Shown here one piece after another: positions 8,883-36,210 of a DNA stretch of 64,000 nucleotides (positions are counted from its first letter, which is position 1; each line of letters begins with the position of its first letter). Location of the stretch: NCBI RefSeq assembly GCF_009914755.1, contig NC_060928.1; one strand, written 5' to 3'. The notes beneath the pieces were generated by a model. It was not told the origin of the DNA, made no database searches, and saw nothing but the letters and a program-made list of their open reading frames with translations. The stretch comes from the human T2T-CHM13v2.0 reference genome, Homo sapiens. The position numbers and the translations under genes are program-made.

Positions 8883-8929
8883 CTGTCAACAATCGAGCTC
8901 ATTTTACTACAGCTTACGGTAAACAACAT
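8883..8929 (-). CDS. CLOCK: CLOCK first coding segment (c.1-47): MLFTVSCSKMSSIVD(R)
   Basis: ATG at 8929-8927 gives the known CLOCK N-terminus. GTATG donor at 8882-8878. Confidence 0.96.
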
Positions 8930-15517: not shown

Positions 15518-15609
15518 CTTTTGTACTCCTTGGATCTTTTAAACTGATTCTTCAGGAAACTATAGGTTCAAGGTACTCTTCTATATGACCAACCATAAGT
15601 CTCAGAATT
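15518..15609 (-). other. CLOCK: CLOCK non-coding 5'UTR exon (92 nt)
   Basis: TTTTTTCTTGTTTAAACAG acceptor and AAG|GTAAAG donor. Unique sequence matching my recollection of the CLOCK mRNA leader (...GATCCAAGGAGTACAAAAG|GAGAAG...). Confidence 0.88.
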
Positions 15610-15739: not shown

Positions 15740-18550
15740 CTATAAATTGTTTCTAAAAGAAAACAAAATAACTTAAAACATGAATAAACTAAAACAATCA
15801 CTTAATTCTGGTACAGAAGTTAAAAGATAAAAGTATTAAAAAACTGTAACTATAAAAATGTTAATGAGTATACAACATAAAAGGATAACATTGTGACATC
15901 AATAACAAGGGAAGAGTAAGAAAGTTACATTTTTATATGCAATTGAAGTTAGATTGTTATACGCTTAAGACAGACTGTTTTAACTATAAGGTGTTTTTAT
16001 ATATAAGCCCCATGGTAATCACATGTGAGGACTGACACAAGAAAATGAGAGGGGAGTCAAAGCACAACTACAAAAAATAAAGAAAGAAAGAAAGAAACAC
16101 AGAGAAAAACAGGAGGAAAGGAAAAGAGGGACAACAGCACTACAAGAAAGACAGCAAGCCCTTCTCTATCAGTAATCACTTTAAACGTAAATGGATTAAA
16201 CTCCTCAATCAAAATACATGGAGTGGCTGAATGGATTTAAAAAAAAAAAGAAAGATCCAACTGCATGTTGTCTCCAAGATTCACCTCAGATTTAAGAACA
16301 GAAGCTGAAAGTGAAAGAATGGAAAAATATATCCCATGCAAATGGCAGCCTAAAGAGTATAAGTGACCATACTTAGATAAAATAGATGTAAAGTCAAATA
16401 CAAGAGACAAAGAAGGACATTATATAGTAATAAGAGTCAATTCATTAGGAAAATATAGCAATTATAAATATATATATATATACACCCAACATCAGAGGAC
16501 CCAAATATATTAAGCAAACATCAATAGAACTGAAGGGAGAAACAGCAGATACAATAGTAGCAGGAGATGTCAATACCCCACTTTCAATAATGGACAGATA
16601 ATCCAAGAGAAATCAAGAAGGAAAGCATAGATTTAAACAGTGTATCAGTACAGTCATCCTTTGTTATCTGACATGGACTGGTTCCAGGACCCCCCACCAA
16701 ATATTAATACCAAAATCTGCAGATGCTTAAGTCCCTTATATAAAATGATGTAGTATTTGCCTATAACCTATGTGCCTCCTCCCCTATACTTTAAATCATC
16801 TCTAGATTACTTATAATGCATAATACAATGTAAATGTGATGTAAATAGGTGTTATACTATATTGGTTTCTTAAATTTGTATTATTTGTAAATGGTTTTAT
16901 TCTCTGAATATTTTTATCCACAGTTGGTTGAATCCACAGACGTGGAACCTTCAGATGCAGAAGGCCAACTGTATAGACCAAATGGACCTAACAGACATAC
17001 ACAAAACATTCCACCCAACAACAGCAGAATACACATTATTCTCAAGTACACAGAGAACGTTCTCTAGGACAGATCACCTAATAGGGCACAGAACAAGTTT
17101 TAACAAATTTAAGGTTGAATTATACTAAATATCTTCTCTGATCACAGTGAAATGTCAGAAGGAAAACTAGAAAATTCATAAGCAGATGAAATTTAAACAC
17201 ACTGTTGAATAACCAAAGAGTCAAGGAAGACATCAAAAGAGAAATTAGAAAACATCTTGAGACAAACGAAAACACAACATACCAAAATGTATGGGATGCA
17301 GCAAAAGTGTTCTGACAGGGAATCTTATTTCAGTCAATGACTGCATTAAAAATGAAGAAAGATTCCTGCAGGTGTGCTAAAAAAAAAAAAAAAAAAAAAA
17401 AAGGAAAGATCTCAAACAATGCAACTTTATACCTCAAAGAACTAGAAAAAGAAGAACAAAGCCCATAGAGAGCAGAAGGAAGGAAATATGATTAGAGTAG
17501 AAATAAAACAGTGAATAGGAAAAAAAAAAAATCAACAAAACTAAGAGTTGTTTCTTTGAAAAGACTAACAAAATTGACAAATCTTTAGCTACACTAGGAA
17601 TAAGAGAAGACTCAAAATCAGAAATAAAAGGAGAAATTACAACTGATGTCACAGAAATAAAAAAGTATTTTTTTGAGACAACTCAATAAATATACACCAA
17701 CAAATTAGATAACCTAGAAAAAATGGATAAATTCCTAGAAATATGCCATCTACCACGAAGGCTGAATCATGAATAGAAAAATGTGAACAGAGTTCACAGC
17801 AGATTTATTCATAATGGTCTAAAACTATAAACAATCCAGATGTTCATTGACAGTACAATGGATAAACAAAATGTGGTATTCATATAATGGAATGCTATAC
17901 AACAAAGAGAAGACTGCATGCAACAGCACAGATGACTTTACAAGAGAGTACATAGTTTTTTTAAGAATAGACAAATTAATCAGTAAGTCAGAATGATAAA
18001 ATAAAAAAAGAAAATCTGAGCAGACACATATAACTTGTAATTATATTGAATCAAAAACTTCCCAATGAAGAAAAGCCAGGACCATATACATGACTTCACT
18101 GAAGAATTCTACCAAACACTGAAAGAATTAATACCAATCCCCCTCAAATGCTTCCAACAAACTGAAAAGGGAACATTTTCAAACTCTTTATGAAGCCAGC
18201 ATTATGCTGATATCAAAGCCAAAGACACCATAAGAAAAAAACTATAGACCAATATTCCTTATGCATATTGATGAAAAATTCTCAACAAAATACTACCAAT
18301 CCAAACGCAACAGTAAATTAAAAGGATTATACCACATGACCAGGTGGTATTTATCCCTGGGATTTGAGCAAGGTTCAACATATATTAATAAAACCAATCC
18401 ATGTGCTACACCACATCAACAAAACCAAGGATAAAAATCGTATGAGGGATCTCAATTGATGCAGAAAAAGCATTTAACAAAATCCAACACCTATTCATGA
18501 TAAAAAAAAAAAACGCCATTCAACAAACTAGGAATAGAAGGAATTTATAA
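15740..18550 (+). mobile_element. L1M ORF2 (endonuclease / RT 5' part) remnant with nested insertions
   Basis: taaatggattaaactcctcaatcaaa and IDQMDLTDIHKTFHPTTAEYTLFSS...TFSRTDH, L1 endonuclease motifs. Confidence 0.88.
16651..16971 (+). mobile_element. MER2 (TcMar-Tigger MITE) inside L1
   Basis: TA-flanked, with inverted termini cagtcatcct.../...aggccaactg; L1 sequence resumes on both sides. Confidence 0.8.
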
Positions 18551-18663
18551 ACCAAGAAAAGGAGGAATTTCTCTTTCTTAAAAAATAAATTGGTTTGAAA
18601 ATTATGCCCTTTGACTCAGTAATTTCACTTTGAGAAATAATAAAATAATCAAAGATGCATCTA

Positions 18664-19021
<358 letters not shown>

Positions 19022-19456
19022 CTAGAACAAATTTAAATGTCTAACTGCATTAACAGTGGCATGAAAATATATCAGACATAAACCTGAATATAGCAAAAGT
19101 ATCAACTGTGATTGCTCCTAGGTAGTTTATGGATGGTGTTTTTTGTTCTTTCTTTAGTACTTTCTAAAATTTCTCCCATGAACATGCATTACTTTTATAA
19201 TCAGAAAGCTTAAGTGCTGCATTTTTTTTCTTTTTCTTTTAATTGTCCAATACTAGAGGCCTAGCTATACATGAGGAGGCAAATAAGATAAAACACAACC
19301 TGTTATCTATTCCAGAGAACAAAAACTTAACAGAGACTATTTTTCTAGCCATTTAAAGAAAACAAAGTTTCATCTAGTTAATAATTTTAAAATTATTAAT
19401 TAAAAATGGCTAACTCAGGAATTTGAATTTTAAAAATTAAAACTACAGTTTTTCCC

Positions 19457-19491
19457 TAACCTAATAACCTACTGACCCACTGACCTACTTT
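19457..19491 (-). promoter_or_regulatory. RORE / RevDR2 nuclear-receptor element followed by two further DR2-spaced half-sites
   Basis: Minus strand reads AAAGT-AGGTCA-GT-GGGTCA-GT-AGGTTA-TT-AGGTTA. Function is inferred from the motif only. Confidence 0.6.
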
Positions 19492-20420
19492 GGAATTTAG
19501 GTTTGTTAATTCTGATACCACAGGTATTTCGGGAACTGACGGATCTATTAACATTAATTAAAAGTAGTGCTGAAATTTAATTGACCGGTATAATACAAAA
19601 CCTAAGGAACAAACCTTAACTACTTTTATTACCACTTATGAAAAATTCTAACTTGCTTCTGCAGATTACTGATTTTGTATTATAACTGAAACAGTAATTA
19701 TTTCTAAGAGAAAAACTATTTTAACTTGCAAAGAAAGGCCCAAATATTTAATACTTTTTAGATTCGTTGTTTAATGTACGAGGAAAAAATGAAATTAAAC
19801 AGTGGTTCTCAATTTATTCAATATTGAATGTATTAGCCACCTCTACAACCGATATAAGATATTGGCAAAATAAAACACATATTTGGTTTTACAGCTATCT
19901 CTACAATCAATTTAAATTTGAAAACTGACCTGTAAGAATAAGAACCACATCCCAAACCAGTTTTATGAACCAGACCTCTTAAAACCAGAGAGGATTCTGG
20001 CTCAAGACAAACATCAACTGACACTATAACTCTAGCCTGCTGAATGTCAAGATGTAAGATATTCACTAAACCTCATTAAATAAACAAAAACTAAAAAATT
20101 AATACAGTTCTCTTAGTGGGACAATACTATTCCAACGATTCAACTAATATATATTTTTCAAGTAATGTCTGAGCTTTGTATTCATATAACAGACTGATCT
20201 TGCCCACAGAGTATAGGAGCACCTTATCCCCTTTTCAGAGATAAGACTAAGGCCTACATCTGTCCTCAGCCCCAAGTAAGCCCCACATAAAACCTGAAGG
20301 TGGAGGGAGAGCACAAGCCTCAGAATGAATTTCACATGTAATCAGGTACCATAAACCTGAAGCTATACGACTCTACACCTGGCCTTCATCCTGACACCAG
20401 CAGGAAGAAAGAGGGAGCCC

Positions 20421-21140
20421 TGTGGTAGGCAGAATAACAGCCTCCGAAGAATGTCCATTCCCTCTTCCCTGGACCTTATGAAGATGTTATGTCACATGGC
20501 AAAAAAGGACACTGCAGATGTGATTAAGGATAAGGATCTTGAGATGTGGAGATTATCCTGCATTATCCAAGTGGGTCCAAAATAATCACGTGAGTTCTTA
20601 AGAGGAAAGGACCTTTCCTAGCTGTGGTTTGATATATCAGAAAGAACGGTCAAAAAGATGGCAAGTTAAAGGCATAAGAATGATACAATGGACCATGGGG
20701 ACTCGGGGAGAAGGGAAGGATAGGAGGGGGGATGAGGGATAAAAGACCATACATTGGGAACAGTGCTCAGGTGATGGGTGCACCAAAATCTCAGAAATCA
20801 CCACTAAAGAACTTATCCATGTAACCAAACACCCCCTGTTCCCCAAAAACCTACTGAAATGATAATTCTTTTAAAAAGATGCAAAGTTGCTGGCTTTGAA
20901 AGTGAAAGAAGGTGGCCACAAGCCAAGGAATTCAGGTAGCCTCTACAAGCTGGAAAAAACAAGGAAACAGATTTTCTCCTGAAGCCTCCAGAGAGAAATG
21001 CAGCCCGCTGACACCTTGGGTTCAGGTCAGTGAGATTTGTGTTGGCCTTCTGAGCTGCAGAACTGTAAAACAATAAATTTGTATTGTCTTAAGCCATTAA
21101 GTTTGTGGTTATTTGTATGGTAGCAACAGAAAACTATACA
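20421..21140 (+). mobile_element. MLT1-type MaLR LTR interrupted by an L1PB-like 3' end (20668-20872)
   Basis: tgtggtaggcagaataa... start and ...gcaacagaaaactataca end. The insert is flanked by aaaaagatggcaagtt / aaaaagatgcaaagtt TSD. Confidence 0.8.
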
Positions 21141-21974
21141 GAATCCGGTTTCTCTCGATAAACCTGGCTCTCACCAACACTTCCCTTTCAGTATTTACAG
21201 CAACCTGCATAGGAGATCATCAAAGAGAATCCCATTATGCCCTCCATTCTTTTTACATCAGTCAACAAGAAATGCCCAAGACTCCCAAGTCATCCCCCAT
21301 CCCTATATACTTTCATCCCTATATACTCTGTATGTCCCTACACTGACCCCTTTTCTCTTCCTCCCCCAATTCCCGAAATCCTTTCGCAGTGTCTTCTGGA
21401 ACTCATGGTACACATCGTCGTTAAAATATCCTATTTCCTCAGTATTGTTGTTGCACACTCTTCACCTTACTTGCTCCCAGCTGTAACCTCTCTCCCCTCT
21501 GGGAGTTCTGCTCTAACTCCAGCCCTTTCAAACAATGGCTTCTCTCTCATGTGAGATAAAATATATTTACTCTCCCATATCTCAGATGACCAAGCCCTGT
21601 TGGTGGGGTGAACTTCCTTGTAACTCACTGTCATTTCTGAATTATTCTCTCCCTCCCTAAAACCTTAGCTTTGACTCTCATGCCACCAGACTACATCAGC
21701 TATTATCCCCTCCTTATTGTAGTCATTCACAAACCCCAGGATAAGCCCCTTCACTCCACGAAGGGTGTGACCCTCTCCAATACCTCTTTTGAATTTCAAT
21801 GTACACAAAATGATCCCCCAAAACTGGCCAGTGAGTTCCTTGATCTCTTCTGCAACAATTTTGTGTTCCACCCCACCTCCCACTCATTCTGCTAGTGTTA
21901 CCCCAGAATTCACCATTACTAATATCCAAAAGACCCTCCGTATCCTCAATTTTAAGCATCTAAGCCCTCTCTCA

Positions 21975-22370
<396 letters not shown>

Positions 22371-23149
22371 ACTGACAATATAGCTCTAACTTATTTATGT
22401 TGGGTCTTTAAAAAGAAAAAAAAAACTGTGCCAGCTCATAATCTTTGTTGGAGCCTCAGTTTCTCTTCCTAGTAAAGGCACAAGGGAGTAAAGCAAGTTT
22501 ATTTGACATGGTCGGGAAGACTAAACATAGTGACAGTCAATGATTGGTTATGTTGTTAATTACCTTCTATGAGAAATGCTTCATTCTTTTTCATGTTTCT
22601 CTAAACTCTAGCCTTCCTTTTGACCACTGAGTCCTTTATACACTTATCATATTGATAAGCTATTCTGTGGCAAAATGTAATGATTGCTTACCACTTTAAT
22701 ATAGTTCAAGTTGTGCTGACTATAAAAACTTTTTAAAATTCCAATTTACAGTATTTACTAACACAAACACATATAATGCAAATAATGAAAAACTTGTTCA
22801 GGGCTCTAAGGCTTCTGAAGATTATTTATCACATTCCAAGACACCAATTTTCCTTTCTAGCTTTAGTCTTATTTCTCCTTCCTCATTTCCCATTCTACTT
22901 TACTGTACACAGACTCCTTATTCTCCAGCTACACTAAGGAATCACGTCACCATTCCTAGATAGTAGAAAATAAAGACCTCTACGTAAAACAAAGGTTTGT
23001 CCACCAGTACCCAATATATTATCAACATAAATATCTTAATACAATAAACTGGAATTGACCTTCACAGAAAATCATATTGTCATTCACATCAAGATTCAAC
23101 TAATCATGATATAAACTTTATGTTATTAGTGAAAAACTGAAGAGGTACT

Positions 23150-25451: not shown

Positions 25452-25810
25452 AGCAGCAGTCCTCAACCTTTTTGGCACCAGCGACTGGTTTCATGCAATA
25501 CAATTTTTCCATGGACAGCGGGGATGGTTTCTGGACAAAACTGTTCCACTTCAGATCATCACACTTGTTAGGGATGGTTTCTGGACAAAACTGTTCCACT
25601 TCAGATCATCACACTTGTTAAGTTAGATTCTCATAAGGAGCATACAACCTAGATCCCTTGCACTCGCAGTTCACTGCAGGGTTCACGCTCCTATGAGAAT
25701 CTAATGCTGCTACTGATATGACAGGAGGCGGAGCTCAGGCGCTAATGCTCACTAGCCAGTCACCTACCTCCTGCTGTGCGGCCTGGTTCCTAACAGGCCA
25801 CAGTACCAAT
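25452..25810 (+). mobile_element. MER1B-like hAT-Charlie MITE containing a 50-bp tandem duplication
   Basis: gcagtcctcaacctttttggcacc...ttagattctcataaggagc...ggcggagctcaggc...ttcctaacaggcca. Confidence 0.8.
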
Positions 25811-26469
25811 CGTTGTTTCAGTTTTCAAAGCGTTCACAATGCTGCTTAAATCTATCCTCCGCATGCATCTCTCAGGGGCAACTCTGGGATTTGAGCAGTG
25901 GTTTACACCATAGTTCAGCTCTCTAGGTCTTTGCCATGTTTCTTTCGCTCTGTTCCATGTACGTGTAGCTCATGGATGCAGTAGGTAGGACCTTTGTGTG
26001 TTCATACATGCAATTAGGGAATCTCCCCCCAAACTAGGTGTCTTCTCTTTGAGACTTCCAAAGCATGCTCCAGCTTCCAGAGTTCTCTTTCCCAATTCCT
26101 CTGGCCAGAGAGACGGCTTTCTTCTTGGGATTTTAAGTACATATACCACTATGGCAATGTAATTTTACAAATGGAGATGGTCTCAGGGCACAGCTGGGAG
26201 AGAAAAAAAGGGGGGAATTTTCTTTGTCCTATGACTAGAAATAAAGGGTTTCTCTTGGAGTTTTTGCTAACTGCTGCACTCAACATGTACTTCTACAACC
26301 CAGCCTACCATTTGGTTAAAGCTGGATAACAAAAAGAAAAAAAAAATGGTAAGCTAAGCACTACACAAGCTATTCAGGTTTTGACTTCCCTTCTCAGTTT
26401 GCCTATTACTGTTTACTTTCGAAAGTCTTCAGATAATTGTTTTTGTTTCTATCTAGAGGGTTTTTGTTG

Positions 26470-36056: not shown

Positions 36057-36210
36057 CTTTGAGCTCAAAATGATGATTGAAGGTATCTAGTGAGACTTGC
36101 CAAGTTCTAAAGATTCATTTAAGAGGACTGTAGAATTATCCAAAGGCATCTTACAATGTGATAGAATCAGCTTCTGAGCTCCAGCAGCTTTGCAGGAACA
36201 AGTAAAAATT
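36057..36210 (-). other. CLOCK: CLOCK non-coding 5'UTR exon (154 nt)
   Basis: TTTCTTTGCAG acceptor and AAG|GTATG donor. Unique sequence; joins as ...GAGCTCAAAG|AATTCTGAG... in the recalled mRNA leader. Confidence 0.85.

What the first reader, a model, noticed from the sequence alone, without database searches (positions are those of the whole stretch)
19457..19491. Four-half-site DR2 array (perfect RORE + RevDR2) inside a CLOCK 5'UTR intron
Seen: the minus strand reads AAAGT AGGTCA gt GGGTCA gt AGGTTA tt AGGTTA, four direct half-sites in exact 8-bp phase, in AT-rich DNA that is neither Alu nor L1. Established: WAWNTRGGTCA is the ROR/REV-ERB monomer site, RGGTCA-NN-RGGTCA with an A/T-rich 5' flank is the REV-ERB dimer site (RevDR2), and REV-ERB/ROR regulate core clock genes including CLOCK. 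Inference: this is a candidate high-affinity intronic feedback element, ~10.5 kb upstream of the ATG and >40 kb from the first exon, distinct from the promoter-proximal site I recall being described. It may have been seeded by an ancient repeat that I cannot name.
Basis: partly seen in the sequence, partly recalled or inferred. Interest (0 to 1): 0.8.

Follow-up and report, generated by a model that had tools for sequence, protein, structure and literature searches.

The report
Perfect REV-ERB dimer site in CLOCK intron
A short eight-base tandem repeat inside an intron of the human CLOCK gene happens to spell a textbook binding site for the clock repressors REV-ERB and activators ROR, which makes it a reasonable but still untested candidate for an extra feedback switch on CLOCK.

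Summary
It is an 8-bp tandem repeat (3.9 copies, 82% matches, TRF score 41) in single-copy, AT-rich DNA of CLOCK intron 2, not in any detectable repeat family. Only the two 5' units are canonical half-sites; together with the AAAGT flank they form a perfect extended RevDR2. That 19-base pattern occurs 30 times in the 3.1-Gb genome, no more than a reversed control (29), so the motif as such is not beyond chance, but about 0.001 copies are expected inside CLOCK. It is distinct from the published CLOCK RevRE, which is promoter-proximal in intron 1 and absent from the window. No paper text holds the sequence. An exact twin of the 19-mer lies 191 kb upstream of the NPAS2 promoter, with unrelated flanks. 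Occupancy, open chromatin and conservation could not be tested with the tools here. Verdict: a sequence-perfect, undescribed candidate REV-ERB/ROR element, about even odds of being functional; a new member of a known kind.

The parts
19457..19491 (-). Whole array: AAAGT + four 8-bp-phased units (AGGTCAGT, GGGTCAGT, AGGTTATT, AGGTTA)
   Evidence: Read directly; unique in the genome as a four-unit pattern
19473..19491 (-). Extended RevDR2, AAAGTAGGTCAGTGGGTCA: A/T-rich 5' flank, two RGGTCA half-sites, 2-bp spacer GT
   Evidence: Matches WAWNTRGGTCANNRGGTCA; one of 30 such sites in 3.117 Gb; one of 12 for the stricter pattern
19481..19491 (-). Monomer ROR/REV-ERB site (RORE) AAAGTAGGTCA
   Evidence: with the next base it equals the 12-mer AAAGTAGGTCAG of the human BMAL1 RevRE EMSA probe printed in PMC3066191
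19457..19470 (-). Two degenerate units AGGTTA TT AGGTTA (C to T at half-site position 5); probably decayed repeat copies
   Evidence: not RGGTCA
19459..19489 (.). Period-8 tandem repeat, 3.9 copies, 82% matches, score 41
   Evidence: TRF
19023..20400 (.). Surrounding single-copy, AT-rich (28-33% G+C) intronic DNA without other clock elements
   Evidence: only weak hits at 19127-19210; composition and motif scan

Best explanation
The stretch is a short octamer tandem repeat in unique DNA of CLOCK intron 2 whose two 5' units, with the AAAGT flank, make a sequence-perfect RevDR2. Most likely it is a real, so far undescribed REV-ERB/ROR response element. Proposed working: two REV-ERB (NR1D1/NR1D2) DNA-binding domains sit head to tail on AGGTCA-GT-GGGTCA, the upstream one also reading the A/T-rich flank; the dimer recruits NCoR-HDAC3 and represses CLOCK transcription when REV-ERB is abundant; ROR binds the 5' monomer site at the opposite phase and activates. 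It would act as a distal intronic partner of the known promoter-proximal intron-1 RevRE, as the intronic ROREs of CRY1 do. The two AGGTTA units are decayed copies that add little. Shown here: sequence, phase, tandem-repeat origin, single-copy context, rarity in the genome, distinctness from the published site. Inferred: binding in cells, corepressor recruitment, any effect on CLOCK.
For: Perfect match to RORE and RevDR2 as defined in PMC7568238, which also reports that these motifs dominate REV-ERBalpha binding in mouse liver and that RevDR2 or paired ROREs recruit NCoR/HDAC3. Only 30 such 19-base sites in 3,117,275,501 bases, so 30 x 118,990 / 3.117e9 = about 0.0011 are expected in CLOCK by chance. 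CLOCK is an established REV-ERBalpha target: knock-down raised CLOCK mRNA 3.2-fold, agonist GSK4112 lowered it about 55% in HepG2 (PMC3066191). The 5' 12-mer equals that of the BMAL1 RevRE probe bound by REV-ERBalpha in EMSA. An exact twin of the 19-mer, in unrelated single-copy flanks, lies 191 kb upstream of the promoter of NPAS2, the CLOCK paralogue and also a REV-ERB/ROR target. Distal intronic ROREs have a precedent in CRY1 (+23 kb mouse, +66 kb human; PMC3458568).
Against: The genome holds as many matches to the reversed control as to the motif (29 against 30; 30 against 12 for the stricter pattern), so perfect sites are not generally kept by selection and most are chance. 6 to 7 of the 30 come from one dispersed repeat family. 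The site stands alone in 28-29% G+C DNA: no second RORE, E-box or D-box within 18001-21000 except one CACGTG inside an old repeat at 20587. RefSeq lists an enhancer at 25606-25900 but nothing here (hub table). Takeda et al. 2012 state that Clock contains one RORE, and a human-mouse conserved perfect site might have been noticed earlier; this hints at, but does not show, lack of conservation. A tandem-slippage origin needs no selection. No occupancy, accessibility or conservation data were seen.
Confidence: 0.5

Rival explanations
1. A neutral by-product: replication slippage multiplied an octamer that happens to resemble the nuclear-receptor half-site; the site is buried in closed, AT-rich intronic chromatin, is not occupied, or is occupied without consequence.
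For: Period-8 tandem repeat; the reversed control four-unit pattern is found 5 times against 1, so such arrays arise readily from tandem duplication; motif count equals control genome-wide; no neighbouring regulatory motifs; nothing in print; no RefSeq functional element at the site (hub table).
Against: About 0.001 perfect sites expected in CLOCK by chance; the exact twin near NPAS2 is hard to credit to chance twice: 29 other sites x 400 kb / 3.117 Gb = about 0.004 for any of them to fall within 200 kb of the NPAS2 promoter, before asking for identity.
Confidence: 0.4
2. A DR2 element used mainly by other nuclear receptors that accept direct repeats of RGGTCA spaced by two (RAR-RXR, COUP-TF/NR2F, TR2/TR4), linking CLOCK to retinoid or other signals rather than to the REV-ERB/ROR loop.
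For: The core AGGTCA-GT-GGGTCA fits the DR2 class; that these receptors accept DR2 is established knowledge recalled by me, from no call.
Against: The AAAGT flank and the T before the second half-site are the features specific for ROR/REV-ERB (definition; the role of the spacer T is recalled); nothing seen here points to retinoid control of this intron.
Confidence: 0.07
3. An RNA-level feature: on the sense strand of the CLOCK pre-mRNA the units AGGUCAGU, GGGUCAGU, AGGUUAUU read as a run of near-5'-splice-site sequences (one mismatch, at +3, from AG|GURAGU) that could bind U1 snRNP as decoys or cryptic donors.
For: The array is on the transcribed strand (hub table: CLOCK on the minus strand); the likeness to the donor consensus is my own reading from recalled knowledge.
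Against: C or U at +3 is rare in real donors (recalled); no RefSeq exon ends here, the nearest alternative exon is 17283-17371 (hub table); no splice-site scoring tool was available.
Confidence: 0.03

Closest known systems
CLOCK intron-1 RevRE (Crumbley & Burris 2011, PMC3066191; same region as the +511/+827 Clock RORE of Takeda et al. 2012, PMC3458568)
   Same: Same gene, same receptor family, intronic, RORE-type extension AAAGT before the half-site.
   Different: That site is a single half-site (AAAGTGGGTCA), promoter-proximal, reported as human-mouse conserved and tested by ChIP, EMSA and reporter; it is absent from this window. The present site is a dimer-type DR2, 53.5 kb from exon 1, untested.
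BMAL1 (ARNTL) promoter ROREs
   Same: The 12-mer AAAGTAGGTCAG is shared with the human BMAL1 RevRE probe; same receptors, same proposed logic.
   Different: BMAL1 uses two separate monomer sites in a promoter; here two half-sites are fused as a DR2 in a distal intron.
RevDR2 of the NR1D1 (Rev-erbalpha) promoter and the RevDR2 class found in REV-ERB cistromes
   Same: Two direct half-sites, 2-bp spacer, A/T-rich 5' flank; dimer binding and NCoR/HDAC3 recruitment (class definition from PMC7568238).
   Different: The NR1D1 autoregulatory site is, as I recall and from no call, an imperfect match; the CLOCK site is perfect but has no binding data.
CRY1 intron-1 ROREs
   Same: Distal intronic ROR/REV-ERB elements of a core clock gene (+23086/23141 in mouse, +66014/66068 in human; PMC3458568).
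   Different: Two monomer ROREs about 50 bp apart, conserved and bound in ChIP-seq; deletion of the intronic enhancer changes behaviour (listing of PMC5900709). None of this is known for the CLOCK site.
NPAS2 promoter ROREs (Takeda et al. 2011, PMC3113563)
   Same: Paralogue of CLOCK under ROR/REV-ERB control; I located the human pair at C2:101277857 and 101277884, 21 bp between hexamers.
   Different: Promoter-proximal monomer pair; the exact twin of the CLOCK 19-mer lies 191 kb further upstream and is not described in any text I saw.

Membership tests
RORE (ROR/REV-ERB monomer response element) | RGGTCA core half-site | tested here: met
   AGGTCA at 19486-19481, minus strand
RORE (ROR/REV-ERB monomer response element) | A/T-rich 5' extension (WAWNT) | tested here: met
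   AAAGT at 19491-19487; definition
RORE (ROR/REV-ERB monomer response element) | Binding by ROR or REV-ERB in vitro | not testable with these tools
   Indirect only: same 12-mer as the BMAL1 probe bound in EMSA
RevDR2 (REV-ERB dimer element) | Two direct RGGTCA half-sites with a 2-bp spacer | tested here: met
   AGGTCA GT GGGTCA, 19486-19473; definition
RevDR2 (REV-ERB dimer element) | A/T-rich flank 5' of the upstream half-site | tested here: met
   Full 19-base pattern matched
RevDR2 (REV-ERB dimer element) | Cooperative dimer binding and NCoR/HDAC3 recruitment | not testable with these tools
   Needs EMSA and ChIP
Functional circadian RRE enhancer of a clock gene | Occupancy by REV-ERB/ROR in chromatin, open chromatin | not testable with these tools
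   No ChIP or ATAC tracks held; text searches found no mention
Functional circadian RRE enhancer of a clock gene | Conservation across mammals | not testable with these tools
   Only the human assembly is held (header: no relatives)
Functional circadian RRE enhancer of a clock gene | Clustering with further clock or tissue factor motifs | tested here: not met
   No second RORE, D-box or E-box near; one CACGTG 1.1 kb away inside an old repeat. Motif list was short and recalled
Transposon-derived nuclear-receptor site (as in Alu DR2 elements) | Lies within a member of a dispersed repeat family | tested here: not met
   Self only for 19300-19700; nothing at the site for 19023-20400; positive controls: 73-85% repeats seen at 20421-20800 and a repeat family carrying another RevDR2 form. 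Very old or rare families cannot be excluded; no Dfam here
Short tandem repeat | Head-to-tail copies of one unit | tested here: met
   Period 8, 3.9 copies, 82% matches, score 41, below the default cut-off 50

The most novel reading that the evidence does not exclude
CLOCK and NPAS2, the two alternative partners of BMAL1, each carry the same 19-base optimal REV-ERB dimer site (AAAGTAGGTCAGTGGGTCA) at a distal position, in the sense orientation of the gene and in otherwise unrelated DNA. The two copies would be kept, or reached independently, by selection for the highest-affinity NCoR-HDAC3 docking site, giving REV-ERB a matched distal handle on both partners beside the known promoter-proximal ROREs.
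Probability: 0.25. Interest if true: 0.6.

Novelty: new member of a known kind. Interest (0 to 1): 0.4.

Why it matters
CLOCK mRNA cycles weakly and its control by REV-ERB rests on one promoter-proximal monomer site. A distal dimer-type site would explain corepressor recruitment at CLOCK, since a REV-ERB dimer or two nearby sites are needed for NCoR/HDAC3 (PMC7568238), and would give a defined 35-bp target for deletion in human cells. If the NPAS2-upstream twin is also bound, the pair would point to coordinated distal control of both BMAL1 partners. If neither is bound, the case is a useful warning that even a 19-base perfect consensus in the 'right' gene can be a by-product of tandem slippage.

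Tried and rejected
Ancient-repeat origin: rejected at the sensitivity available. Identity with the published CLOCK RevRE: rejected. Common ancestry of the CLOCK site and the chr2 twin: rejected; flanks match at 50 of 200 and 43 of 200 positions in register, as random, and G+C is 0.29 against 0.52; the twin is upstream of NPAS2 while the CLOCK site is intronic. Twin inside NPAS2: rejected; it is 191 kb upstream of the promoter RORE pair. Literature on occupancy: searches and passages of PMC7568238, PMC3458568, PMC6105032 gave nothing on this position. Papers not held: Kumaki 2008 by DOI, PMC2975162, PMC3367514, PMC4613749. Supplementary peak tables of the ChIP-seq papers were not opened and could bear on mouse occupancy; figures of all papers are not held. 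A local motif scan for partner elements found none.

Full report
1. The observation. By the hub's table the window is T2T-CHM13 chr4:58962001-59026000, so the array is chr4:58,981,457-58,981,491, which one search confirms. CLOCK is on the minus strand, so the array is in the sense orientation. One search confirms the start codon at 8929 (MLFTVSCSKMSSIVD). The array is 10,528 bp upstream of the ATG, 3,848 bp upstream of exon 15518-15609, 16.6 kb downstream of exon 36057-36210 and 53.5 kb from the first exon. In NM_004898.4 it therefore lies in intron 2, a 5'-UTR intron.

2. Chance. In the window the DR2 core RGGTCANNRGGTCA occurs once against 0.02 expected, and 2 of 100 shuffles had one or more. 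The monomer pattern WAWNTRGGTCA is not enriched: 4 found against 2.23 expected, and 18 of 100 shuffles reach 4. In the whole assembly (3,117,275,501 bases) the 19-base extended RevDR2 pattern occurs 30 times against 29 for the reversed control. A stricter 16-base pattern occurs 12 times against 30; its label as a published consensus is recalled and comes from no call. The four-unit pattern occurs once, here, against 5 for its reversed control. So the motif is rare, but not more common than composition and tandem duplication give. What is unlikely is its place: 30 x 118,990 / 3.117e9 is about 0.0011 perfect sites expected in CLOCK.

3. What the DNA is. TRF reports 19459-19489 as a period-8 repeat with 3.9 copies, 82% matches and score 41, which is under the default cut-off of 50. 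Given one DR2, two further in-phase RGGTYA units are far beyond base-composition chance. The reversed control array is at least as frequent, which is what slippage of short units produces. Only units 1 and 2 are canonical half-sites. Units 3 and 4 carry T at half-site position 5 (AGGTTA).

The surrounding DNA is single copy:
- A genome search with 19300-19700 found only itself.
- A search with 19023-20400 found only weak hits at 19127-19210 and an AT-rich palindrome at 19375-19402.
- Tiles 19001-20800 had 0-1 look-alikes in 254 kb of human DNA.

The method can see old repeats: one search found copies at 73-76% identity for 20421-20660 and at about 81% for 20667-20800. The flanks have 28-29% G+C. 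Between 18001 and 21000 they hold no other RORE, D-box or E-box, except one CACGTG at 20587 inside the old repeat.

4. What is in print. Crumbley & Burris 2011 (PMC3066191, whole text) found REV-ERBalpha and NCoR on the first intron of CLOCK in HepG2. Their single conserved RevRE has the core AAAGTGGGTCA.
- REV-ERBalpha knock-down raised CLOCK mRNA 3.2-fold, and GSK4112 lowered it by about 55%.
- That sequence has 0 matches in the window at up to 2 mismatches.
- Takeda et al. 2012 (PMC3458568; passages; supplement text) place the Clock RORE at +511/+827 with a GGGTCA core, and say that Clock contains one site.
- The BMAL1 RevRE probe printed contains AAAGTAGGTCAG, the same 12-mer as the 5' end of the present site. 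Binding of at least a REV-ERB monomer in vitro is therefore very likely (inference).
- A text search for four strings of the site in about 8.4 million papers and preprints found 0.
- Searches for a CLOCK intronic REV-ERB enhancer found none.
- Hunter et al. 2020 (PMC7568238; passages) give the definitions used here. They report that RORE and RevDR2 motifs dominate REV-ERBalpha binding, with chromatin accessibility being permissive.

5. An unexpected twin. Among the 30 genome-wide sites, one at C2:101086748-101086766 (+) has the identical 19-mer. At up to one mismatch the genome holds 3 copies (2 exact) against 6 for the reversed control.
- The CLOCK bHLH exon peptide finds its paralogue at C2:101383848-101383988 with 85% identity.
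- The only CpG island in C2:101.20-101.39 Mb is 101277101-101279900.
- That island holds two AGGTCA hexamers 21 bp apart, at 101277857 and 101277884, as Takeda et al. 2011 describe for the conserved NPAS2 promoter ROREs (PMC3113563, passages).
- The twin is thus 191,091 bp upstream of that pair, in the sense orientation of NPAS2.
- Its flanks are unrelated to those of the CLOCK site: 50 of 200 and 43 of 200 identities in register, with G+C 0.52 against 0.29. It is single copy.

Three other identical pairs exist among the 30. One search shows that 6 of the 7 sites of the form TAWTTRGGTCATGRGGTCA share long flanks. They belong to one dispersed repeat family, which explains those pairs but not this one. 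For any of the 29 other sites to fall within 200 kb of the NPAS2 promoter, I compute about 0.004. This is a post hoc figure and should be read as a lead.

6. Mechanism and odds. I put 0.5 on a real REV-ERB/ROR element:
- a REV-ERB dimer on units 1-2 recruits NCoR-HDAC3;
- ROR binds the 5' monomer site at the opposite phase;
- units 3-4 are inert remains.
This would work like the distal intronic ROREs of CRY1. The sequence facts are shown; binding and effect are inferred. I put 0.4 on a neutral slippage product without function, 0.07 on use by other DR2-binding receptors, and 0.03 on an RNA-level reading as a run of near-donor splice sites.

Against function stand the following:
- the motif count equals its control;
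- partner motifs are lacking;
- the hub's RefSeq table has no functional element at this position;
- earlier human-mouse comparisons named only one Clock RORE.

7. Limits. No ChIP-seq, ATAC or conservation data and no second vertebrate genome were within reach. Four key papers were not held. Supplementary peak tables were not opened, and figures are not held. The structural roles of the flank and of the spacer T, and the receptor range of DR2 elements, are recalled knowledge.

8. Verdict. This is a new, untested member of a known kind of element, and of moderate interest. The identical site upstream of NPAS2 raises that interest somewhat.

Noticed in passing
L003:501-519 (G000:C2:101086748-101086766, + strand): Exact copy of the 19-base RevDR2 of the CLOCK intron, in unrelated single-copy flanks, 191 kb upstream of the NPAS2 promoter RORE pair and 297 kb upstream of the NPAS2 bHLH exon; a further inverted GGGTCA lies about 40 bp downstream.
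   Followed up: partly
L023-L029 (seven genome sites): Seven of the 30 perfect extended RevDR2 sites have the form TAWTTRGGTCATGRGGTCA; six of them share long flanks and so belong to one dispersed repeat family that carries a ready-made RevDR2. The C1:83.3 Mb and C7:78.2 Mb copies are nearly identical over 319 bases. I did not name the family.
   Followed up: partly
window 19375-19402: AT-rich palindrome (TTAATAATTTTAAAATTATTAATTAA type), 28 bases, 93% self-complementary, about 60 bp from the array.
   Followed up: no
window 17201-17500: Tiles here have 78-103 look-alikes in 254 kb, like the Alu-sized blocks at 18601-19000 and 21901-22400; the hub's table puts an alternative CLOCK exon at 17283-17371, so that exon probably lies in a high-copy repeat.
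   Followed up: no
L011 (G000:C2:101277101-101279900): The only CpG island in 190 kb upstream of the NPAS2 bHLH exon; holds the 21-bp-spaced AGGTCA pair at 101277857/101277884 and further ROREs at about 101277125 and 101278048 on the minus strand.
   Followed up: partly
window 19457-19467, minus strand: The 3' end of the array with its flank reads TTAGGTTAGGG, i.e. one and a half telomere-like units; probably chance.
   Followed up: no
window 20421-20800: Two old dispersed repeats (73-76% and about 81% identical to many genomic copies; 2380 first-look candidates), the first holding the only CACGTG near the site.
   Followed up: no
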